Assembly: GCA_903945195.1 (NCBI GenBank) | Contig: CAJAUT010000013.1 | Span: forward strand, 11,473-75,472 | DNA from: an uncultured bacterium | GTDB taxonomy: Bacteria; Patescibacteriota; Microgenomatia; UBA1400; UBA12108 | Direction: 5' to 3' | DNA: 64,000 nt | Shown: positions 9,131 to 58,678 of the stretch, piece by piece | Numbering within the stretch: the stretch's first letter is position 1 | How the letters are laid out: every line of letters begins with the position of its first letter | Translations under genes and position numbers: made by a program | Notes under the pieces: model-generated | What the model saw: the letters and a program-made list of their open reading frames with translations, nothing else | The model's database searches: none | What the model was told of the DNA's origin: nothing

Positions 9131-10093
9131 CTAGAGATCTACTGCAATCCAGTTGTGGTGAGCATAGACCCAGTCTACAAGTATTCTTGTATCGCCGAAG
9201 CGACTAAGAGAGCCAAGCACTACGATAATGATGCGCTTGCCGTCTCTATCTATATAACTCACTAGACACTCCCCTGCCCCACTGGTCCAACCAGTCTTTA
9301 GACCTTTAAGACCTGGCACTACACCTAGGAGTTCATTGGTATTTTCTAGATCATGGACGATGAGACCTGTGACGTCTGTCACGACAATACGTCTAATCTC
9401 CACTATCCGAGCGATCTCTGGATTTTTTAAGGCATATGAAGCCAAGACTGCGATATCGCGAGCAGTTGTCATATGACCATACTGCTCGACACCGGATGGG
9501 TTTTTGAAAGTGGTGTGATCCAAATGTTGGTCACGAGCTTTTTGGTTCATGGCAGCTACAAAAGCATCATAGCCACCATTGTAATTTTCAGCTACTGCTA
9601 GAGCTGCATCATTGCCTGAATGGACTAGGAGGCCATACAAAATATTTTGGATCGTGATCTTCTCACCTTTGACCAAATCTATGGTTTGACCGATGGCGCG
9701 ATCTTCGTTTTTGACTTCGATTACAGTGTTTAGATCATGATAGTAGTCTAGGGCGACAAGAGCCGTCATAACTTTGGTGATAGAAGCTGGCATCATAAGC
9801 AAGTCTGGATTTTTGCTGTACAAAATGCTTTTACCTTCGTCGTCTTGAATGATCGCGGATTTGGCGGAGATATAAGGAGCTTTGACACCGTCAGAAAGTG
9901 GATAAATAAAAGAGTTGATCTGGGGGAGTGTGTATGCATATACTTTACCTGGATTTAATAGAGTCGTCTGTAAGTCATTTTGTCCAGGATAGAGGAAAGC
10001 GAAAAGAAATATAGAGCAAGTAAGAATTTGGCGAGAAAGATCTAGCTTTATAAATCTCGACAAAAATAATTTAAGTGATTTAAATTTCCACAT
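9131..10093 (-). CDS. D-alanyl-D-alanine carboxypeptidase (PBP5-like serine peptidase)
   Basis: SITK (SxxK), SGN and KTG active-site motifs. Confidence 0.7.
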   Translation of the reverse strand: MWKFKSLKLFLSRFIKLDLSRQILTCSIFLFAFLYPGQNDLQTTLLNPGKVYAYTLPQINSFIYPLSDGVKAPYISAKSAIIQDDEGKSILYSKNPDLLMMPASITKVMTALVALDYYHDLNTVIEVKNEDRAIGQTIDLVKGEKITIQNILYGLLVHSGNDAALAVAENYNGGYDAFVAAMNQKARDQHLDHTTFKNPSGVEQYGHMTTARDIAVLASYALKNPEIARIVEIRRIVVTDVTGLIVHDLENTNELLGVVPGLKGLKTGWTSGAGECLVSYIDRDGKRIIIVVLGSLSRFGDTRILVDWVYAHHNWIAVDL

Positions 10094-11765
10094 GACTGCC
10101 TATCAACTGAAGCAACTCCTTGTCGCGCCAAACATTTATATCGATCGTACAAATAGCAGAAATTAAATGAGTCAGAGGATAGTCCAGCTTTGTATTAAAG
10201 AGCATAAGCTGACGAGTTTCACCATCCTGCTCTACCGTTAGCTTCCTGTGTTTACCACTACTGCCCAGCTGTTTGTCTTCTAAGACTTTTAAATTTTCGA
10301 AATAAAATTTGGGCTTTTGATTGTGCATACCAAAAGGCTCCATAGTAGAGATGAGTTTGGCGAGCTTGAGACTGGTAGAAGAAAGATCTAACTTTAGATC
10401 GGCAAAGTGAGTTTTTACCAGCAATTCATCTGTGATTTTTTTGTCTGCCAAAGCCTCTAATTCTTTAGTCATAGCTTTTACATTTTTTTTGTCGAGACTA
10501 AAACCTGCGGCTTGGTCATGACCACCCAGACCAAGGAAAGGAGTCTTGAGCGATCTAAGTAAATCAGTGATACTGACACCATTGACTGAGCGCGCTGAAC
10601 CTTTGATCACCTCTCCGTTATCGCTCATGACGATTGCTGGCTTGTTGTACAACTCTGCGAGTTTGCCGGCTACTAGTCCTATGACGCCTTCGTGATAATC
10701 ACCGATGATGACAATGATTTTGTGCTTGGCTTTTAGAGCAGCTACTGACTGCAATGCACTATCTGTATATTCTTGCCTATCTTTGTTGTGCGACTCTATT
10801 TTTGCAGCCAGCTCTTTGGCTTGTTTAGTATCTGAAGTACAAAGGAGTCGTAGAGCATCGAGTGGATTGTAGATACGGCCAGCTGCGTTGATGCGGGGAG
10901 CGATGCCAAAACTAATGTCATAGGTTGAGAGATCTTTAGCTCCTACACCCATTGCTTCTTTCATAGCGACGAGTCCTGGACGCTTGGTACGGGTAAGTGC
11001 AAATAAACCTTCTACGCAAATAGATCTATTTAAACCAACTAGTGGCATCATGTCTCCTACTACGCCTATCGTGGCTAGATCAACTAGGCGGATAGCAGCA
11101 TCACCTAGGAGATACATAGCAAAGATCCAGGCTACGCCCGCTCCTGAGGTGGCAGTCGTGTGCACGATGGCAGTTGCTTCTGGAAGAACTGATTCTGGGA
11201 GATGATGATCGGTGATAATCGTATCTATGCCAGCTGATTTAAATGTCGATATACCCACGTGGGCCACAATGCCTGTATCGACAGTGATGATGAGCTTGGG
11301 GCGATAACCTTTCAAGCTAGTGTGACTGAAAGCCTCGCCACTGACTACCTCAGCTACTGCTTTGTCCCCTAGGCCGTAACCATGTTTGTGACGATCTGGC
11401 ATAAATGGGAGGATGCGAGAGGTAGATTTTTGGAGCTTGGCGTAAGCGGTGATGGCCTGCCACATGATAGCGGTAGAGGAGACTCCGTCGGCGTCGTAAT
11501 CGCCAAAAACACAGATATCGGAAGATTTCTCTAGATGCGAGTCTATGAGCTTTTTGGCTTTATTTAAAATGGATTTTTTAAGACCTGATTCGTGCAAGAG
11601 ATAATCTAGATCTGGGGCAACTGGGTGCAAAAACTCTTCTTTTTGAACTTTGGTCTTGTATCCCCTACTCTCCATGAGAGTGTCAAAGATATCTTTGGCG
11701 GTAGCACCCTCTTCTACTTTGGTTTTGAGCTTGATGTCCATATTAATTTGTTCGGATAAAATCAA
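10080..11765 (-). CDS. recJ: single-stranded-DNA-specific exonuclease RecJ
   Basis: DHH family motifs (GDYDADG, ITDHH). Confidence 0.8.
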   Translation of the reverse strand: MILSEQINMDIKLKTKVEEGATAKDIFDTLMESRGYKTKVQKEEFLHPVAPDLDYLLHESGLKKSILNKAKKLIDSHLEKSSDICVFGDYDADGVSSTAIMWQAITAYAKLQKSTSRILPFMPDRHKHGYGLGDKAVAEVVSGEAFSHTSLKGYRPKLIITVDTGIVAHVGISTFKSAGIDTIITDHHLPESVLPEATAIVHTTATSGAGVAWIFAMYLLGDAAIRLVDLATIGVVGDMMPLVGLNRSICVEGLFALTRTKRPGLVAMKEAMGVGAKDLSTYDISFGIAPRINAAGRIYNPLDALRLLCTSDTKQAKELAAKIESHNKDRQEYTDSALQSVAALKAKHKIIVIIGDYHEGVIGLVAGKLAELYNKPAIVMSDNGEVIKGSARSVNGVSITDLLRSLKTPFLGLGGHDQAAGFSLDKKNVKAMTKELEALADKKITDELLVKTHFADLKLDLSSTSLKLAKLISTMEPFGMHNQKPKFYFENLKVLEDKQLGSSGKHRKLTVEQDGETRQLMLFNTKLDYPLTHLISAICTIDINVWRDKELLQLIGSHVEI

Positions 11766-12462
11766 GTGCTGATTTCACCATTTCCTTCCAGGCATTTTTT
11801 TCTATATTTGATTCAGGCTTGAGCATCTTATGTCCATACCCTGAGATAATTATTTTTTGAATATATTTGGCTGATTTAGAGTATATTTCTTTTACTTGCT
11901 CTGGGATCGTTGTGTCGTTTTCACCATAGAGCAAGAGAGTGGGATTACTAAACGATGACAAAGAACTAAATGCCAAACTATCTATCCAATTATTTTCTGT
12001 GTTGATTGCGTCTGAAAATTTGGGGCCAAAGCTCTGAGACTCTGCATGTTGTCCATAAGCTGCAGCTGACTGTAGGATCAAGCCTTTGATATTTGAATGA
12101 GTACTTGTAAGTCTAGCGGCGATATGACCACCCATACTAGAACCCCATAGAAAGATTTGATTATCTGTAAGTCCTGTTATATCTTTAAAACTCTTTAAGG
12201 CTGACTCTGCATCTACCAACCTATCTTTTAAGTTGCTTTCTTCAAAGATGCCTTCACTTGAGCCGCAGCCTCTAAAACTAAATGCCAAGCTAGTAATATT
12301 TTTATCTGAAAAAAATGACTGCACATCGCCATATCTTTCTGCACTTGAATGCCCTCCGCCATGAAGGAATAAAATCCCAACTTTAGAATGAGCTCTCGGA
12401 GTGTCAATAACACCATGTAGGACAAGGTTGTCAGACCGAATTTTTATATCTAGTTTAGTCAT
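11743..12462 (-). CDS. alpha/beta hydrolase (esterase/dienelactone hydrolase-like)
   Basis: GSSMGG nucleophile elbow, HGGGH oxyanion region. Confidence 0.55.
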   Translation of the reverse strand: MTKLDIKIRSDNLVLHGVIDTPRAHSKVGILFLHGGGHSSAERYGDVQSFFSDKNITSLAFSFRGCGSSEGIFEESNLKDRLVDAESALKSFKDITGLTDNQIFLWGSSMGGHIAARLTSTHSNIKGLILQSAAAYGQHAESQSFGPKFSDAINTENNWIDSLAFSSLSSFSNPTLLLYGENDTTIPEQVKEIYSKSAKYIQKIIISGYGHKMLKPESNIEKNAWKEMVKSALDFIRTN

Positions 12463-12492
12463 ATATTGTTCCGATGAATCGATTCAACGGTA
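12463..12492 (-). promoter_or_regulatory. 30-nt leader element containing 12-nt palindrome TGAATCGATTCA, abutting ATG of 11743..12462
   Basis: Near-identical copy at 12946..12975 abutting ATG of the TrpR-like gene. Confidence 0.5.
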
Positions 12493-12945
12493 TTATTTTA
12501 GTTTGCTTTTAATTATTCTAGTTTTATTTCTAAGAGCTTTTTCCTTTGCTAGGTGATGCCAATCGTGATATTTTCCTGGCGGCAACTTGTCTAATATAAC
12601 ATCAATATTGTCAAAAAATGTTTCCCAGTTTTTTTCTTTATTCAATTTTTCTAGACCTAACTTTGTACTCTCGGAGGCATTTTTTAGCCAGCTGTTTACA
12701 CTCATAACTGCTGAGTTGCTAACAAATAAGGTATTTTTGATATGTAGTGCTGAATGTCCTCTCATGAGCAATACCATTATCATAAACCTCTTGCTAAACA
12801 TAATTTTTTCGGTAGGAGTTAAAAAATCATTAAAAAAATGATCAATTGCATCTGAGGATTGCATTTTAGCCACAAAACTACTAAATTCCGTATATATAAG
12901 ATCTCCCATTTCTGGTTGTAGCTGATGTTTTGAGACCTGTGTCAT
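12493..12945 (-). CDS. TrpR-like (YerC/YecD family) DNA-binding protein; start at ATG 12945 rather than TTG 12957
   Basis: FLTPTEKIMFSKRFMIMVLLMRG...VSNSAV resembles the Trp repressor/YerC helix-turn-helix. Confidence 0.45.
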   Translation of the reverse strand: MTQVSKHQLQPEMGDLIYTEFSSFVAKMQSSDAIDHFFNDFLTPTEKIMFSKRFMIMVLLMRGHSALHIKNTLFVSNSAVMSVNSWLKNASESTKLGLEKLNKEKNWETFFDNIDVILDKLPPGKYHDWHHLAKEKALRNKTRIIKSKLK

Positions 12946-12975
12946 AAAATGTTCCAATGAATCGATTCAACGGTA
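12946..12975 (-). promoter_or_regulatory. second copy of palindrome-bearing leader element (TGAATCGATTCA) abutting ATG
   Basis: 27/30 identity with 12463..12492 including the spacing to the ATGAC start. Confidence 0.5.
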
Positions 12976-13031
12976 TAAAATTACTGTATTAGTTACATGA
13001 TACACTCCTTGCCCTGTGGTAGACTAGCTTT

Positions 13032-14399
13032 ATGAAGTTTAAACTAGATCCTGGGGTAATAAAAATAGTAGAGACAATAGAAGCTGCGGGACACGAAGCG
13101 TGGATAGTGGGTGGGGCTGTGCGTGACCTACTACTAGACCTACCCTCTTACGACTGGGACGTGACCACAGATGCTACTCCAGAACTTATAGTACCTCTAT
13201 TTAACGAAAGCTTTTATGACAATGAATATGGCACAGTCAAAGTAGCTGGCAAGCATATCAGGGAGCAATTTAAGCTAGAAGAAGGAGCGATAGATGACTC
13301 CGTACTTTATGACATCACGACTTTTAGATCTGAAAGTGAGTACAGCGATAAACGTAGACCTGATAGCGTGGAGTGGGGTAAGACGATACAAGAGGATTTG
13401 AAAAGACGTGACTTTACCATAAATGCGATAGCTATAAATTTGAAGGATGAGATAGTTGATCCTTATGGTGGGCAAGAAGATATTATAAATAAACTGATCA
13501 AAGCGGTGGGGAGGCCTGGCGAAAGGTTTGAGGAAGATGCGCTTCGGATCATGAGGGCGATAAGATTATCTGCCCAGCTTGGGTTTGGCATCGAAGCAGA
13601 AACGCTAAAGGCTCTAAATGATAAAGTGCAAAACCTCAAAGAGATCTCGTGGGAAAGAATTGGGGCGGAAGTGATGAAGTTACTCTCCACGGAACACAGC
13701 GCTGACGGGATTATGCTCATGACCAATTGTGGGATCACAGAGATAATCATGCCAGAACTTCTAGAAATGAAAGAAGTAAAACAAGGTGGTCACCATATCT
13801 ATGATGTCTTTACTCACTCTATAGAAGCACTGCGTGCATGCCCGTCCCCTGATCCTGTGGTACGACTAGCTACCCTACTACATGATATCGACAAACCTGT
13901 TGTGTCTAGAGAAGGCGGAGAGCGCGGAGTTACATTTTACAATCATGAGGTCAGTGGTGCCCGTACTGCTAAACGTATATCTGAGAGACTAAAGCTATCT
14001 AAAAAAGATCAAGACAGAGTATTTACCCTCGTCAGGTGGCATATGTTTGTCTACGAATCCAAGATGACCGATGCTTCGATCCGCAGATTTATCCGCCGGG
14101 TGGGAAAAGAAAATATCCATGACATGCTGGCACTAAGGGTGGGCGACAGAGTTGGCGGAGGATCTAAAGCTACTAGCTGGCGACTCACAGAGCTGCAAAA
14201 AAGAATTGGTGAGCAATTTTACGAACCGCTCTCACTAAAAGATTTAAATATAAATGGTGCAGAGATTATGGAGATACTAAATATCACTCCATCTAGAAAA
14301 ATAGGAGAAATACTTAATACTTTGTTTGAAGAAATCTTAGATGATAGTAGTAAGAACACTAAAGAGTATTTGATTGCCCGTGTGAAAGAGCTTGGTTAA
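13032..14399 (+). CDS. cca: CCA-adding tRNA nucleotidyltransferase with HD domain
   Basis: GGAVRD and RRDFTINA head-domain motifs; HD domain (HHIYDV...LLHDIDK). Confidence 0.8.
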   Translation: MKFKLDPGVIKIVETIEAAGHEAWIVGGAVRDLLLDLPSYDWDVTTDATPELIVPLFNESFYDNEYGTVKVAGKHIREQFKLEEGAIDDSVLYDITTFRSESEYSDKRRPDSVEWGKTIQEDLKRRDFTINAIAINLKDEIVDPYGGQEDIINKLIKAVGRPGERFEEDALRIMRAIRLSAQLGFGIEAETLKALNDKVQNLKEISWERIGAEVMKLLSTEHSADGIMLMTNCGITEIIMPELLEMKEVKQGGHHIYDVFTHSIEALRACPSPDPVVRLATLLHDIDKPVVSREGGERGVTFYNHEVSGARTAKRISERLKLSKKDQDRVFTLVRWHMFVYESKMTDASIRRFIRRVGKENIHDMLALRVGDRVGGGSKATSWRLTELQKRIGEQFYEPLSLKDLNINGAEIMEILNITPSRKIGEILNTLFEEILDDSSKNTKEYLIARVKELG

Positions 14400-21328: not shown

Positions 21329-21952
21329 TTAAGACAAACTTAGTATCTCATCGACCCTGGCAGTGTCTGTAATCTGGCGTAAATTGGCAATATCTTGATC
21401 ATGAGTGGGTTTATGTGTCAGTGTGCGCTGCTTGAAGAGTATGTCGGCCAAGTGAGTATGGGGATTTTGAACGTCTATATGAATGTCACCTAGTAATCCC
21501 TCAACTGGACCGGGGAATCTTTTTTCGGTATTTGTAATGGCCTCACCGTTTTGTTTGATTATTTTATTTAAATTGGTAAATGGGTTTTCGCTGGTTTGGA
21601 CATAATAAATATTGGCTCCTAGTCCTGGAGAGTGGAGATCTATAACAACCATAAAATCATTTTTGGTAATTTCGAGAGTAGCCCTTTGAATTGAGCTCGA
21701 CAAGAAATTGGTAATTTTTGGAAGGATAACTTCCCGATGATCTTGGCCATAGATAATGATGTCTACGTCATTGTGGGTACGAGTGATTTGGCCTAGTAGG
21801 ATATCGAGACCATAACCACCAGATACTACTATTCTCCACCCTTGCGATTTTGTGAAAACCTGAAATGATTTGATGAATTTTAAGTCAGTGGAAGTCTTCG
21901 ACCAATTAATCGATTCCTTTGGGGCGCACTTGACTGCAACTTTGCTCATCAA
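21329..21952 (-). CDS. nucleotidyltransferase-fold protein, aminoglycoside 2''-adenylyltransferase-like
   Basis: SGGYGLDILLG...HNDVDIII matches the G[GS]...D-x-D minimal NTase motif. Confidence 0.45.
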   Translation of the reverse strand: MMSKVAVKCAPKESINWSKTSTDLKFIKSFQVFTKSQGWRIVVSGGYGLDILLGQITRTHNDVDIIIYGQDHREVILPKITNFLSSSIQRATLEITKNDFMVVIDLHSPGLGANIYYVQTSENPFTNLNKIIKQNGEAITNTEKRFPGPVEGLLGDIHIDVQNPHTHLADILFKQRTLTHKPTHDQDIANLRQITDTARVDEILSLS

Positions 21953-27535: not shown

Positions 27536-28378
27536 TTATATTGTGTCTACATCATACCAAATTACGGGAACTTTATGAAACCAAGTCATTTGTCTTTTGA
27601 CATATGCCATTTCGTCGTGAACCCAAGCCTCTATCATTTCATCTTTAGTAAGCTCATTTTTTAGGTATTTGATAATGCTTTTGTATCCTATAGCAGACAT
27701 GGACTGGACACCCTCTGAGTATTGTTTTAATAATATTTTTGTTTCTTCTACTGCTCCTAAGTCTAGGCGTGACAAAACTCTAGAGTGAATTTGTGCTTTT
27801 TGAATATTTGAATCATTGTATTTTAAGCCAATGATTTTTGGTTCTGTTTTACAAAGAACCGTTCTTTGTAAAGTTTGACCGCTCATGGAAATCTCTATGG
27901 CTCGCACTAAGCGGCGAGGATTTAGCTGGTCACTATGATTCATGGACTCAAATTTAGAGTTGTCTACACTCATGAGTTTGGTTTGTAACTCAATGATAGA
28001 AAGTGACTCTAATTCTTTTCTGAGATTGTGATTGATAGGTACTGACATGGTCTCTATACCATCTGTGATGGCTTTTACGTATAGCCCTGTACCGCCTACT
28101 ACGATGACTTGTTTCCCTGTTTCGATAGCTTCAGAAATATGTGGGATAACAGCGTCGTACCAAATAGAGACGGAGCAAGACTCATCTGGATTTACAAGGT
28201 CTATGCCATATACTGGAATATCTTTTGGATGATCTTTACCAGGGACGATATCCATGCCTTCAAATACTTGGCGAGAATCCGCGGAAACTAGAATACTTGA
28301 GTGAGTACTAGCTAGCTCTAAAGCTTTTTTGGTTTTGCCGGTTGCGGTTGAGCCTACTACACAAATTATTTGATCCAT
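27536..28378 (-). CDS. miaA: tRNA dimethylallyltransferase (start at internal Met MDQIICVVGSTATGKT)
   Basis: P-loop immediately at N-terminus; MiaA-like length. Confidence 0.75.
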   Translation of the reverse strand: MDQIICVVGSTATGKTKKALELASTHSSILVSADSRQVFEGMDIVPGKDHPKDIPVYGIDLVNPDESCSVSIWYDAVIPHISEAIETGKQVIVVGGTGLYVKAITDGIETMSVPINHNLRKELESLSIIELQTKLMSVDNSKFESMNHSDQLNPRRLVRAIEISMSGQTLQRTVLCKTEPKIIGLKYNDSNIQKAQIHSRVLSRLDLGAVEETKILLKQYSEGVQSMSAIGYKSIIKYLKNELTKDEMIEAWVHDEMAYVKRQMTWFHKVPVIWYDVDTI

Positions 28379-57532: not shown

Positions 57533-58678
57533 GTGCAAGATAATTTTAGAATGTTAAATGGGCAGACACTGCCATATCCACTGTTTTTCCCGGATGCTAC
57601 GAGGGGTGAGGTAAGACAGCTGACATTTGAGGATGTAAAAATGGTTGGGTTACCAGGGATACTCGTAAATACCTTTCATCTACTGAGACTAGTGGGGACA
57701 GAGAAAACCGTGGCAGCTGGTGGAATACATAAATACCTGGGATGGGACGGCGCTATGATATCTGACTCTGGAGGATTTCAGGTAATGTCGATCGCCAAGA
57801 AATATGGGGGAAACAGCACTGTGACGGATGAGGGTGTGACATTCACTCTCGACGGCATTGATCATCATTTCTCCCCCGAAGATTCAATTAAATATCAGAT
57901 GGCGATGGGGACTGACCTAATGGTGGTGCTAGATGACTTCACCCCACCGGATGCCACACATGAAGAAGCGGAGGTCACGGTAAATAGGACGACACTTTGG
58001 GCAAAGAGATGTAAGGAAGAATTCAACAGGCTGCAAAGTTCCGATCACTCGCCTAAAATCACGCAAGGATCGGAACTAGGGAACAAAAGACCTTATCTGA
58101 TTGGGGTGGTACAGGGAGGAGAATACGAAGACCTGAGACTAAAGAGCATTAAAGAGCTGATGGAAATTGGGTTTGATGGGTACGGTTATGGAGGATTCCC
58201 CATGAAAGATGGGAAATTTGATGAGGCAATGGCAAAGTTTATGGCGGACAATTTGCCAAAAGATACCGTATTGTATGGCCTAGGAATAGGTAAACCAGAT
58301 GATATTGTGAAATGCGTGAACCTAGGATGGCAGATATTTGATTGTGTCCTACCAACAAGGGACGCCCGCCACGGACGGCTTTATGTATATACCAATGAAC
58401 CTGCCCGCAGTGCTTACAGCACAGCTGTTGCAGGCGGGTCGATTCAACGGATCAATGTGCAAAAAGATGGATTTTATGAATATTACAACCCTAGACAGGC
58501 GTTACATCTCGAAGAAACTGGGCCGGTTAGTAGTGCGTGTGATTGCGAACTGTGCACGAGTTTGAGCCGCAAAGAATTTGCTACCATGTGGAGAGCGCGA
58601 GATGAAAAAGTGCTGCGACTAGCCACGATCCATAACCTTAGGTTTTATGCGATACTGATGGAAAAATTGAGGAAATGA
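57533..58678 (+). CDS. tgt: queuine tRNA-ribosyltransferase (GTG start with GGAGGA Shine-Dalgarno)
   Basis: DSGGFQ, LMVVLDDFTPP, VQGG, GFDGYGYGG, FDCVLPTRDARHG, CDCELC...H zinc site; about 28-aa lineage-specific insertion before the zinc site. Confidence 0.8.
   Translation: MQDNFRMLNGQTLPYPLFFPDATRGEVRQLTFEDVKMVGLPGILVNTFHLLRLVGTEKTVAAGGIHKYLGWDGAMISDSGGFQVMSIAKKYGGNSTVTDEGVTFTLDGIDHHFSPEDSIKYQMAMGTDLMVVLDDFTPPDATHEEAEVTVNRTTLWAKRCKEEFNRLQSSDHSPKITQGSELGNKRPYLIGVVQGGEYEDLRLKSIKELMEIGFDGYGYGGFPMKDGKFDEAMAKFMADNLPKDTVLYGLGIGKPDDIVKCVNLGWQIFDCVLPTRDARHGRLYVYTNEPARSAYSTAVAGGSIQRINVQKDGFYEYYNPRQALHLEETGPVSSACDCELCTSLSRKEFATMWRARDEKVLRLATIHNLRFYAILMEKLRK
58399..58440. repeat. 42-nt repeat, exact copy of 11..52, in-frame inside tgt (encodes EPARSAYSTAVAGGS)
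   Basis: Direct comparison. Confidence 0.8.

What the first reader, a model, noticed from the sequence alone, without database searches (positions are those of the whole stretch)
12463..12975. Duplicated 30-nt palindrome-bearing element abutting the start codons of two adjacent genes (TrpR-like regulator and hydrolase)
taccgttgaatcgattcatYggaacaWtWt-ATGAC occurs twice, at 12463..12492 and 12946..12975 on the minus strand. Each copy runs straight into the ATG with identical spacing and contains the perfect 12-nt palindrome TGAATCGATTCA. The upstream gene encodes a Trp-repressor-fold (YerC-like) protein, so the palindrome is a natural candidate operator for autoregulation and for control of the downstream alpha/beta hydrolase.
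Basis: partly seen in the sequence, partly recalled or inferred. Interest (0 to 1): 0.5.

Follow-up and report, generated by a model that had tools for sequence, protein, structure and literature searches.

The report
Repressor gene bracketed by its operators
A small Trp-repressor-like regulator gene in an uncultured CPR (Microgenomates) bacterium is flanked on both sides by copies of one palindrome that is very probably its own DNA-binding site, and the same "site–gene–site" layout recurs across a large, unstudied family of such regulators.

Summary
A 43-nt direct repeat (86% identical) lies at 12941-12983 and 12458-12500. Each copy carries the perfect 12-mer TGAATCGATTCA inside an imperfect 20-24-nt palindrome that ends 6-8 nt before an ATG, and there are no other copies in the 64 kb. 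The gene between them (12493-12945, minus strand) has a TrpR fold but is neither TrpR nor YerC/HisR proper. It belongs to a 150-aa subfamily of CPR bacteria with at least 1,300 cluster representatives.

The operator reading is strongly supported by comparison. In the six species of this clade aligned here (59-71% identity to the window's regulator) the palindrome sits 8-11 nt before the ATG of the regulator and of the next gene (hydrolase or recJ), and in three of them before both. Across 81 loci, 52-56% have a near-perfect palindrome beside the regulator's start and stop, against 1% of control windows. The two copies match each other, differ between lineages and paralogues, and co-vary with the recognition helix.

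The downstream copy is tied to the regulator's stop codon whatever the next gene's orientation. It therefore also looks like part of the regulator's own control (roadblock or loop), not only a switch for the hydrolase. RNA-hairpin, terminator and mobile-element readings were tested and are not supported. Binding itself is untested.

The parts
12941..12983 (-). Copy 1 of the 43-nt repeat. It holds the upstream operator: an imperfect 24-nt palindrome TACCGTTGAATCGATTCATTGGAA at 12952-12975, with the perfect core at 12958-12969. A 6-nt A/T-rich spacer and the regulator's ATG (12945-12943) follow.
   Evidence: The element is conserved in six species at the same position. Strain L002 has C instead of T at the one position where the two window copies differ inside the palindrome.
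12493..12945 (-). Gene for the 150-aa TrpR-fold regulator. The helix-turn-helix spans about residues 62-90, and there are extra C-terminal helices at 107-149.
   Evidence: Pfam PF01371 at 32.3 bits against a cut-off of 27. AlphaFold2 mean pLDDT 88. The top 43 Foldseek PDB hits are all TrpR or TrpR-like, with target-normalised TM about 0.6-0.8 (0.70-0.79 for the best forty). The PDB profile search gives 3G1C, 3FRW and 3KOR at E about 1e-9 to 1e-10.
12458..12500 (-). Copy 2 of the 43-nt repeat. It holds the downstream operator, TACCGTTGAATCGATTCATCGGAA at 12469-12492, with the perfect core at 12475-12486. It starts directly after the regulator's TAA stop codon (12493-12495) and ends 6 nt before the hydrolase ATG (12462-12460).
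   Evidence: It is conserved before the hydrolase or recJ in relatives, 8-11 nt from the ATG.
11743..12462 (-). Alpha/beta-hydrolase gene (239 aa), the first gene behind the downstream operator. It is present in some clade members and absent in others.
   Evidence: Pfam Hydrolase_4 and Abhydrolase_1. Absent in L006, L131 and L146. Apparently truncated in L121.
10080..11741 (-). recJ. Its ATG lies one base after the hydrolase stop codon, so it is probably co-transcribed. In relatives it is directly preceded by its own copy of the palindrome.
   Evidence: Pfam DHH, DHHA1 and RecJ_OB. Third copies are seen in L005, L007, L008 and L135. The arrangement P-reg-P-recJ is seen in L006 and L131.
12984..13031 (.). 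The rest of the 86-nt divergent intergenic region shared with the CCA-adding-enzyme gene (13032-14399, plus strand). It contains two blocks that are invariant in six species: GTGTATCATGTA (12994-13005) and TAGTCTACCAC (13016-13026), both written on the minus strand.
   Evidence: Alignment A2. Reading these blocks as promoter elements of the divergent gene is inference.

Best explanation
The two elements are the cognate DNA operators of the TrpR-fold repressor encoded between them. A dimer of the protein recognises the 24-bp palindrome, whose clade consensus is TTCCGnTGAATCGATTCAnCGGAA.

The upstream operator ends 6-8 nt before the regulator's ATG, over the start-site-proximal part of its promoter. 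The protein therefore shuts off its own synthesis (negative autoregulation).

The downstream operator fills the 30-nt gap between the regulator's stop codon and the hydrolase ATG, with the same spacing to that ATG. There the bound repressor gates transcription into the hydrolase-recJ genes. It could do so by occluding a start site embedded at the end of the regulator gene, or by acting as a roadblock to polymerases reading through from the regulator's promoter.

A signal that releases the repressor (ligand unknown) would open both locks at once.

Shown: the sequence anatomy, the protein fold, conservation, and co-variation between operator and recognition helix.
Inferred: binding, repression, promoter positions, and the roadblock or occlusion step.
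For: 1. The protein has a TrpR fold with a helix-turn-helix. Characterised members of the family, TrpR and HisR/YerC, bind roughly 20-bp palindromes and are often autoregulated (PMC9413887).

2. Both copies are conserved in the six clade species aligned here (59-71% identity to the window's regulator). The palindrome columns are invariant while the flanks vary. A closer relative at 83% identity also keeps both copies.

3. The spacing to the ATG is constant (8-11 nt) before the regulator, the hydrolase and recJ.

4. The pattern is family-wide. Of 81 loci, 52% have a near-perfect palindrome of at least 18 nt before the start and 56% have one after the stop, against 1.0% of 687 control windows.

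5. The two copies in a locus resemble each other. The mean longest shared word is 15.3 nt, against 7.5 nt for mismatched loci. The sequence differs between lineages and between paralogues within one genome.

6. Operator similarity tracks similarity of the HTH region after controlling for the rest of the protein: partial Mantel r = 0.24, reached by 0 of 2000 permutations. Eight of the 20 best mutual-information positions lie in residues 62-90, against 4.1 expected.

7. In 77 of 97 cases the symmetry runs through the centre with no loop, as expected for a dimer site on duplex DNA.

8. Relatives carry the same 26-28-nt palindrome at other genes: the tgt promoter, inside miaA, and before a DUF1653 gene. 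In miaA the site arose by substitution, not insertion.

9. Four species keep the same asymmetric upstream variant, GATAGATCGGAA, without compensatory changes. This suggests selection on sequence and not on pairing.
Against: - No binding or expression data exist.
- Promoters are not mapped, and the consensus scan found no sigma-70-type promoter at either copy.
- The window's own copies are the most degenerate in the clade. In the upstream copy 3 of the 12 arm pairs are mismatched.
- No further sites occur in the 64 kb. The window's tgt and miaA lack the sites that relatives have, so a regulon beyond this locus is not visible here.
- Across the family, the downstream copy is coupled to the regulator's stop (median 4 nt) and not to the next gene's start (median 71 nt). 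It is as frequent before convergent genes as before co-oriented ones.
- In the recA loci, the recA promoter lies downstream of the palindrome. 'Operator of the next gene's promoter' therefore cannot be the general role.
- The co-variation statistics are confounded by phylogeny.
Confidence: 0.7

Rival explanations
1. Both copies bind the encoded repressor, but the downstream copy serves the regulator's own control and not the hydrolase. Either it is a roadblock at the 3' end of the regulator gene, which stops or insulates its transcript as LacI does at O3. Or it is the second anchor of a roughly 480-bp repression loop closed by a tetramer, perhaps through the extra C-terminal helices. Any effect on the hydrolase would be a by-product.
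For: The downstream palindrome starts a median of 4 nt after the stop codon (IQR 1-9). It is present in 18 of 30 loci where the next gene is convergent. In L057, L061 and L036 it fills a 22-34-nt gap between two stop codons, where no promoter can exist. In the recA loci it lies upstream of the recA -35 box. Extra copies within +/-4 kb are rare. There is a precedent: LacI bound at O3, at the end of lacI, roadblocks lacI transcripts, and this is enhanced by O1-O3 looping (PMC3711431). The protein has about 45 extra C-terminal residues with no counterpart in TrpR.
Against: In this clade the downstream copy keeps the same 8-11-nt spacing to the next ATG as the upstream copy does. A further copy is placed before recJ, far from the regulator's stop. 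This points to a role at the downstream genes. Operator-to-operator distances show no helical phasing (Rayleigh p > 0.2 for periods 10-11.2, n = 36), though that is weak evidence at 480 bp. Tetramerisation is untested.
Confidence: 0.2
2. The palindromes act as RNA hairpins and not as DNA sites. Possible roles are a 5'-UTR structure that masks translation starts, an intrinsic or bidirectional terminator after the regulator gene, or stabilising stem-loops at the ends of the mRNA.
For: Perfect copies in relatives fold well as RNA: L004 at -12.5 kcal/mol (z = -4.2) and L007 downstream at -11.6 kcal/mol (z = -3.3). A position right after a stop codon is typical of terminators. The T-for-C difference in window copy 1 would keep a G-U pair.
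Against: The window's copies fold no better than shuffled sequence (-4.5 and -5.9 kcal/mol, z = +0.3 and -1.5). There is no U-tract: only 7% have at least 5 T in the next 8 nt, and the mean T count equals background. GC content is about 28%, and the terminator scan is negative at both copies. Symmetry runs through the centre in 77 of 97 cases, which a hairpin loop does not need. The conserved asymmetric upstream variant shows no compensatory changes. No Rfam family matches. This reading does not explain the co-variation with the HTH helix.
Confidence: 0.04
3. The palindromes are bound by some other factor, for example a different regulator, a nucleoid protein or a methyltransferase/restriction enzyme acting at the ATCGAT core. 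Their position around the TrpR-like gene would then be incidental.
For: Binding by the encoded protein is not demonstrated. The core contains common 4- and 6-bp restriction-type palindromes. In relatives the element is sometimes adjacent to a second, unrelated palindrome.
Against: The palindrome changes with the adjacent regulator's recognition helix, and differs between paralogues in one genome. It brackets this gene family specifically in 52-56% of loci across many CPR lineages, against 1% of controls. A 24-30-bp site is far longer than modification sites.
Confidence: 0.04
4. The direct repeats are recombination or duplication scars, or the ends of a small mobile or cassette-like unit, and are not regulatory sites.
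For: The repeats flank single genes exactly. The hydrolase is present or absent between palindromes in different species, giving P-reg-P-hyd-P-recJ versus P-reg-P-recJ. That pattern could arise by recombination between copies.
Against: Synteny (CCA-adding enzyme, regulator, then hydrolase and/or recJ) is stable across regulators 59-83% identical to the window's. There is no recombinase or transposase, and no PHROG or PADLOC hit for the regulator. Only two copies occur in 64 kb. Scars would decay, whereas these are the most conserved intergenic bases. The site inside miaA arose by point substitution in frame.
Confidence: 0.02

Closest known systems
E. coli TrpR (tryptophan repressor) and its operators
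   Same: The all-helical fold and helix-turn-helix are shared: Foldseek target-normalised TM is about 0.70-0.79 for holo- and DNA-bound TrpR structures, and 1TRO is among the hits. Both use a palindromic operator of about 20 bp at the promoter. TrpR also represses its own gene (established knowledge; also stated in PMC9413887).
   Different: The score against the TrpR equivalog model is 16.8 bits, with a cut-off of 67.25. The protein is 150 aa against about 108, with two extra C-terminal helices. The operator sequence is unrelated (ATGAWTCGAWTCAT-type core versus GTACTAGTTAACTAGTAC). There is no link to trp genes, the co-repressor is unknown, and a second operator sits at the 3' end of the gene.
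HisR / YerC-YecD family (TrpR-family histidine repressor of Firmicutes)
   Same: These are the closest solved relatives by sequence: 3G1C, 3FRW and 3KOR at E about 1e-9 to 1e-10. Both have 20-bp palindromic operators with lineage-specific consensus sequences. About half of HisR genes are autoregulated through a site upstream of the gene (PMC9413887).
   Different: The score against the YerC/YecD model is 13.9 bits, with a cut-off of 42.2. HisR proteins are under 100 aa. The HisR motif cacTTTAnnnnnnTAAAgtg differs. HisR sites precede his and transporter genes and do not bracket the regulator. Here the neighbours are a hydrolase, recJ, recA and others.
LacI autoregulation through O3 (roadblock plus O1-O3 loop)
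   Same: An operator at the 3' end of the repressor's own gene lets the bound repressor stop its own transcript, and a second operator nearby controls the adjacent genes (PMC3711431).
   Different: The protein family differs (LacI/GalR tetramer). O3 is a weak auxiliary site and not a twin of the main operator. lacI has no operator at its own promoter. The mechanism is only inferred here.
Phage repressor systems with operators flanking the repressor gene (lambda CI OL/OR looping) and mycobacteriophage L5 'stoperators'
   Same: Cognate sites lie on both sides of the repressor gene, or at gene ends. They act by looping or by blocking elongation. This comparison rests on my own knowledge and was not tested here.
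   Different: Those are phage immunity systems with multiple tandem sites or many dispersed asymmetric sites. Here there is one palindrome on each side of a chromosomal gene, with no phage context.

Membership tests
Trp repressor superfamily (Pfam PF01371) | Sequence match above Pfam's gathering score | tested here: met
   32.3 bits against a cut-off of 27; residues 20-101 match profile positions 5-87 of 88.
Trp repressor superfamily (Pfam PF01371) | All-helical TrpR fold with a helix-turn-helix (helices D and E) | tested here: met
   AlphaFold2 mean pLDDT 88 with eight helices. The top 43 Foldseek PDB hits are all TrpR or TrpR-like, with target-normalised TM about 0.6-0.8 (0.70-0.79 for the best forty).
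Trp repressor superfamily (Pfam PF01371) | Intertwined homodimer that binds a palindromic operator of about 18-20 bp | not testable with these tools
   A 24-bp palindrome with zero-loop symmetry is present and co-varies with the recognition helix. Dimerisation and binding need experiment or complex modelling.
Trp repressor superfamily (Pfam PF01371) | Small-molecule co-repressor pocket (Trp in TrpR, His in HisR) | not tested
   No ligand inference was attempted. Neighbouring genes give no amino-acid pathway clue.
TrpR proper (NCBIfam TIGR01321, equivalog) | Score at or above the curated cut-off of 67.25 bits | tested here: not met
   16.8 bits.
YerC/YecD = HisR (NCBIfam TIGR02531) | Score at or above the curated cut-off of 42.2 bits | tested here: not met
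   13.9 bits.
YerC/YecD = HisR (NCBIfam TIGR02531) | Length under 100 aa, operator consensus cacTTTAnnnnnnTAAAgtg, and sites before his or histidine-transport genes (PMC9413887) | tested here: not met
   The protein is 150 aa. The operator is ccgtTGAATCGATTCAtcgg. The neighbours are a hydrolase, recJ and the CCA-adding enzyme.
Negatively autoregulated local repressor | Cognate site overlapping or adjacent to the regulator's own promoter or start, conserved in orthologues | tested here: met
   The upstream palindrome ends a median of 7 nt before the ATG. It is present in 52% of 81 loci against 1% of controls, and is invariant in the clade alignment. The promoter itself is not mapped.
Intrinsic (Rho-independent) terminator / structured RNA | Stable G+C-rich stem followed by a U-tract, or a match to a known RNA family | tested here: not met
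   The window copies fold at -4.5 and -5.9 kcal/mol, z = +0.3 and -1.5. No T-runs are present and GC is about 28%. The terminator scan is negative at both copies. There are no Rfam matches.
Dispersed repeat or mobile element (REP, MITE, IS) | Many dispersed copies, terminal inverted repeats with target duplications, and an associated transposase or recombinase | tested here: not met
   Only two copies occur in 64 kb. Synteny is stable. There is no transposase, and no PHROG or PADLOC hit for the regulator.
LacI-O3-type roadblock or loop autoregulation | Operator at the 3' end of the repressor gene | tested here: met
   The downstream palindrome starts a median of 4 nt after the stop codon, independent of the neighbour's orientation.
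LacI-O3-type roadblock or loop autoregulation | Truncated or blocked transcripts at the site; oligomer able to bridge two operators | not testable with these tools
   No transcript data are available. Operator spacing is not helically phased, which is neutral at about 480 bp.

The most novel reading that the evidence does not exclude
This 150-aa TrpR-like family may be a major, rapidly diversifying set of self-contained 'operator-gene-operator' switches in CPR bacteria. In this reading the repressor both shuts its own promoter and serves as its own protein terminator or insulator (a roadblock, or a loop closed by the extra C-terminal helices). Several members would be the missing local regulators of DNA recombination and uptake genes (recA, recJ, uvrD, dprA, comEC), giving an SOS- or competence-like control layer that does not use LexA.
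Probability: 0.15. Interest if true: 0.75.

Novelty: new variant of a known kind. Interest (0 to 1): 0.5.

Why it matters
CPR/Patescibacteria have tiny genomes and very few recognisable regulators, and almost nothing is known experimentally about how they control genes. This analysis pairs one large regulator family (at least 1,300 representatives at the 50% clustering level) with its predicted binding site in each of 63 of the 81 loci examined, and the method extends to the rest of the family. That makes the family directly testable by EMSA or DAP-seq with synthetic proteins, without cultivation.

The paralogue-specific operators offer a natural series for studying how TrpR-fold proteins change DNA specificity.

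The bracket layout, with identical sites at the start and the stop of the repressor gene regardless of neighbours, is unusual. If it works by roadblock or looping, it would be a compact way to insulate a transcription unit in genomes with very short intergenic regions.

The recurrent placement before recA, recJ and other DNA-metabolism genes hints at how these organisms regulate recombination and DNA uptake.

Tried and rejected
1. Other copies in the window. There are none. The 2-mismatch hit at 21906 is intragenic and consistent with chance.

2. RNA hairpin or terminator. The window copies fold weakly, there are no T-runs, GC is low, the palindromes have no loop, and there is no Rfam match. 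Rejected.

3. Helical phasing of the operator-operator distance, as a test for looping. No signal. Neutral.

4. Leaderless-promoter model for the family. Individual loci fit TTGACA-17/18-(-10 inside the palindrome)-ATG. However, a crude family-wide test of missing Shine-Dalgarno motifs and a -10 hexamer near the start was not significant against neighbouring ORFs. In the window's clade no -10 hexamer sits at the right distance from the ATG. Kept only as a possibility for some lineages.

5. The palindrome's TTGAAT as a -35 box with a -10 box over the ATG. Rejected, because the conserved N-terminus fixes the ATG as the start.

6. A wider regulon in this genome. Relatives have the site at the tgt promoter and inside miaA, but the window's tgt (57533-58672) and miaA (27542-28378) lack it.

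7. A functional theme among neighbours. Co-oriented downstream genes include recA in 7 loci, plus uvrD, dprA, comEC, tatD and dcd/dut. The recA loci are one clade, and convergent or divergent neighbours are ordinary housekeeping genes. Suggestive only.

8. Phage or defence origin. There is no PHROG or PADLOC match for the regulator.

9. Literature. No paper in the searchable library describes this CPR family. The Patescibacteria SOS paper (Sanchez-Osuna et al. 2017) is cited by others but is not held, so its content could not be compared.
Full report
**1. The observation**

On the minus strand, the sequence TACCGTTGAATCGATTCAT(T/C)GGAACA(T/A)T(T/A)TATGAC occurs at 12975..12941 and 12492..12458. 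The repeat finder reports a 43-nt direct repeat at 86% identity (12941-12983 and 12458-12500) with a 483-nt period. The perfect 12-mer TGAATCGATTCA is at 12958-12969 and 12475-12486. With up to 2 mismatches there is only one further hit in 64 kb, at 21906, against 3.9 expected. That hit lies inside an ORF and has no extended symmetry. The 26-nt pattern with up to 3 mismatches matches twice in the window and never in 100 shuffles.

Each copy ends 6 nt before an ATG when measured from the 24-mer, or 8 nt when measured from the CGG. The first ATG starts a 150-aa protein that matches Pfam Trp_repressor (32.3 bits, cut-off 27). The second starts a 239-aa alpha/beta hydrolase, which is followed one base later by recJ. 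The upstream neighbour is a divergent CCA-adding-enzyme gene.

**2. The organism and the protein**

Identical or near-identical proteins come from metagenome-assembled CPR bacteria of the Microgenomates group.

- The predicted structure is confident (mean pLDDT 88).
- Its best 43 PDB matches are all TrpR or TrpR-like proteins, with target-normalised TM about 0.6-0.8 (0.70-0.79 for the best forty).
- By sequence profile, the nearest solved relatives are the HisR-type proteins 3G1C, 3FRW and 3KOR.
- The protein falls far below the curated NCBIfam cut-offs for TrpR (16.8 against 67.25) and for YerC/YecD (13.9 against 42.2).
- It carries about 45 extra C-terminal residues, forming two helices with a basic tail, that TrpR and HisR lack.

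An exhaustive profile search finds 1,304 cluster representatives at E <= 1e-10. Nearly all are 145-150 aa long and cover the whole profile. This is a distinct, large subfamily of the TrpR superfamily.

**3. Conservation in the clade**

Six species whose regulators are 59-71% identical to the window's were aligned, and one at 83% was examined separately. In all of them the full element is a 24-26-nt palindrome, ATTCCGnTG(A/T)ATCGAT(A/T)CAnCGGAAT. It is a perfect 24-mer in L004.

In the upstream intergenic alignment, the invariant columns fall in three blocks. One of them is the palindrome. Downstream, the palindrome begins 0-9 nt after the regulator's stop codon and ends 8-11 nt before the next ATG.

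The next gene varies between species:

| Arrangement | Loci |
|---|---|
| P-reg-P-hyd-recJ | window, L004, L121 |
| P-reg-P-hyd-P-recJ | L005, L007, L008, L135 |
| P-reg-P-recJ | L006, L131, L146 |

The constant partner is therefore recJ and not the hydrolase. Each gene that has a palindrome has it at the same distance from its ATG.

Four species share the same asymmetric upstream variant (right arm GATAGATCGGAA) with no compensating change in the left arm.

**4. The family-wide pattern**

I fetched 80 loci encoding homologues from species-representative genomes and examined the flanks.

| Measure | Result |
|---|---|
| Near-perfect palindrome (>=18 nt) in the 90 nt before the start | 52% of 81 loci |
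| Near-perfect palindrome in the 110 nt after the stop | 56% of 81 loci |
| Same in 687 control windows from the same loci | 1.0% |
| Upstream copy end to ATG | median 7 nt (IQR 2-13.5) |
| Stop codon to downstream copy start | median 4 nt (IQR 1-9) |
| Longest shared word, two copies of one locus | mean 15.3 nt |
| Longest shared word, copies from different loci | mean 7.5 nt |

The sequence changes from lineage to lineage. Examples are CTTTAATGATTTAAATCATTAAAG, CTACGATGATACGTATCATCGTAG and CTTCATTACTATATAGTAATGAAG, around a common core ATGATTY|RAATCAT. Paralogues in the same genome have different palindromes (with the contig names).

**5. Is the palindrome read by the adjacent protein?**

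- Half-site type follows the recognition-helix sequence. For example...ATTATTC goes with VS(T/P/K)STVG(T/M)VH(K/R)Q...GATAC with VSP(S/G)TIGS, and ...GTTCT with VGLETxNKVNR.
- Loci with the same context (regulator followed by recA) but different helices have different cores.
- Operator identity correlates with identity of residues 62-90 after controlling for the rest of the protein. The partial r is 0.24, reached by 0 of 2000 permutations.
- Eight of the 20 protein positions with the highest mutual information to a half-site base lie in the HTH region, against 4.1 expected. Residue 78, at the start of the recognition helix, pairs most strongly with the central base.

These statistics are confounded by shared ancestry, so I treat them as supportive and not decisive.

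**6. DNA site or RNA structure?**

- The window's copies fold no better than shuffled sequence (-4.5 and -5.9 kcal/mol, z = +0.3 and -1.5).
- Downstream palindromes are not followed by T-runs (7% have at least 5 T in the next 8 nt, and the mean equals background), and they are only about 28% G+C.
- In 77 of 97 cases the best inverted repeat has no unpaired centre. A dimer on duplex DNA requires this; a hairpin does not.
- No Rfam family matches.

The RNA reading is not supported.

**7. What the downstream copy does**

The next gene is convergent in 30 loci and co-oriented in 46. The downstream palindrome is equally frequent in both groups (18/30 and 27/46). Its distance to a co-oriented start is variable (median 71 nt, IQR 14-101). 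In several loci it fills a 22-34-nt gap between two stop codons. In the seven recA loci, a conserved promoter (TTGTAT-17 nt-TAAAAA) lies downstream of it. Extra copies within +/-4 kb are rare.

The general unit is therefore palindrome-gene-palindrome. The downstream site belongs to the regulator's transcription unit. The best precedent is LacI bound at O3, at the end of lacI, which roadblocks its own transcript and loops to O1 (PMC3711431).

For the window's clade I think both roles coincide. A repressor bound in the 30-nt gap would stop polymerases coming from the regulator's promoter, and it would also cover any start site for the hydrolase-recJ genes. The conserved 8-11-nt spacing to each ATG, and the third copy before recJ, argue that the downstream genes are real targets here.

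A test for helical phasing of the two sites was negative. At about 480 bp this does not discriminate between the alternatives.

**8. Sites elsewhere**

A scan of metagenome contigs with the 20-mer core returned about 27 low-GC contigs whose matches also carry the unspecified flanks (tATTCCG...CGGAATat). They are therefore genuine members of the same family of sites.

- Some are the regulator locus itself.
- Others lie about 17 nt upstream of a GGTATAAT box and a tgt start codon (L157, L152).
- Others lie 8 nt from a DUF1653 gene (L137).
- Others lie inside miaA, where they encode YSVESIQRN (L158, L092, L102, L123, L096).

These contigs share gene order with the window at 58-82% protein identity. 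The window's own tgt promoter and miaA lack the site. In miaA the window encodes YNDSNIQKA at the same length, so the site in relatives arose by substitution. This favours a transcription-factor site that is gained and lost, and it argues against insertion of a mobile repeat.

**9. Neighbours**

Co-oriented downstream genes include recA (7 loci, largely one Curtissbacteria clade), the hydrolase (4), and single cases of uvrD, dprA, comEC and a PD-(D/E)XK nuclease. There are also tatD and dcd/dut (2 each), and recJ in the window's clade. Convergent and divergent neighbours are ordinary housekeeping genes. A DNA-metabolism theme is suggestive but not established.

**10. Comparison with what is known, and verdict**

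The system works like the autoregulated TrpR and HisR repressors, which bind palindromic operators of about 20 bp (PMC9413887). It is a member of the TrpR superfamily by sequence and by fold. It is not a member of the TrpR or YerC/HisR orthologous groups.

It differs from them in several ways:
- the longer protein;
- the longer operator (24-30 bp), whose outer arms are lineage-specific;
- the bracket arrangement around the gene;
- the lack of any amino-acid-pathway context.

I found no description of this family in the searchable literature, although subscription journals are not covered.

I rate the window's feature as a real, conserved regulatory element. It is ordinary in kind (a repressor with its operators) but belongs to a new variant with an unusual architecture. 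My confidence is 0.7 that the elements are the encoded protein's operators, acting in autoregulation and in gating the downstream genes.

Noticed in passing
window 12994-13005 and 13016-13026 (written on the minus strand): Two blocks in the divergent intergenic region, GTGTATCATGTA and TAGTCTACCAC, are invariant in six species. Read toward the CCA-adding-enzyme gene they give ATGATA-17 nt-TGgTAGACT, ending 6 nt before its ATG. This looks like a promoter for a leaderless or near-leaderless mRNA.
   Followed up: partly
L158:2061-2082, also L092, L102, L123, L096; window equivalent about 27790-27830 (miaA, 27542-28378, minus strand): In relatives, a perfect 28-nt copy of the operator lies inside the miaA coding sequence, in frame, encoding YSVESIQRN. 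The window's miaA has YNDSNIQKA there and no site. It may be an intragenic operator or roadblock ahead of the two downstream genes.
   Followed up: partly
L157:4390-4445 and L152:2830-2882; window tgt at 57533-58672: In relatives the operator sits about 17 nt upstream of GGTATAAT, followed 7 nt later by the tgt ATG, which looks like a leaderless promoter. The window's tgt has a different leader: TGTGTATAAT, then a small hairpin CCCCCTTCGTTCTGGGGG, then GGAGG and a GTG start. It has no operator and no Rfam match.
   Followed up: partly
L085:540-568, L101, L106, L132, L151, L152, L157 (e.g. L157:4364-4388); L153 and L156: A second, unrelated palindrome directly abuts the operator in many distal sites of relatives: ATATCACATACCCGGTATGTGATAT, or in two loci ATCACTCCGCCATGGCGGAGTGAT. 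It could be another factor's site, a terminator of the preceding gene, or part of a composite repeat.
   Followed up: no
L014, L016, L017, L019, L021, L023, L026 (regulator-recA intergenic regions): In Curtissbacteria and relatives, a paralogue of the regulator sits directly upstream of recA. A conserved recA promoter (TTGTAT-17 nt-TAAAAA, preceded by TGTAG) lies 10-30 nt beyond the downstream palindrome. The palindrome core differs between these loci while the context stays the same.
   Followed up: partly
L006:4454-4480, L131:8670-8705, L146 compared with window 11743-12462: The hydrolase gene shows a presence/absence polymorphism between two palindrome copies. In L121, the closest relative (83% identity), the hydrolase reading frame stops after 61 codons. 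This may be a pseudogene or an assembly error.
   Followed up: partly
L012, L025, L052, L068, L075 (upstream regions): Some family members have two tandem palindromes upstream of the regulator, or a palindrome displaced 35-75 nt from the ATG. This suggests variant promoter architectures, possibly with cooperative binding.
   Followed up: no
window 1-64000: There are no tRNA genes and no Rfam family at gathering threshold anywhere in the 64 kb.
   Followed up: yes
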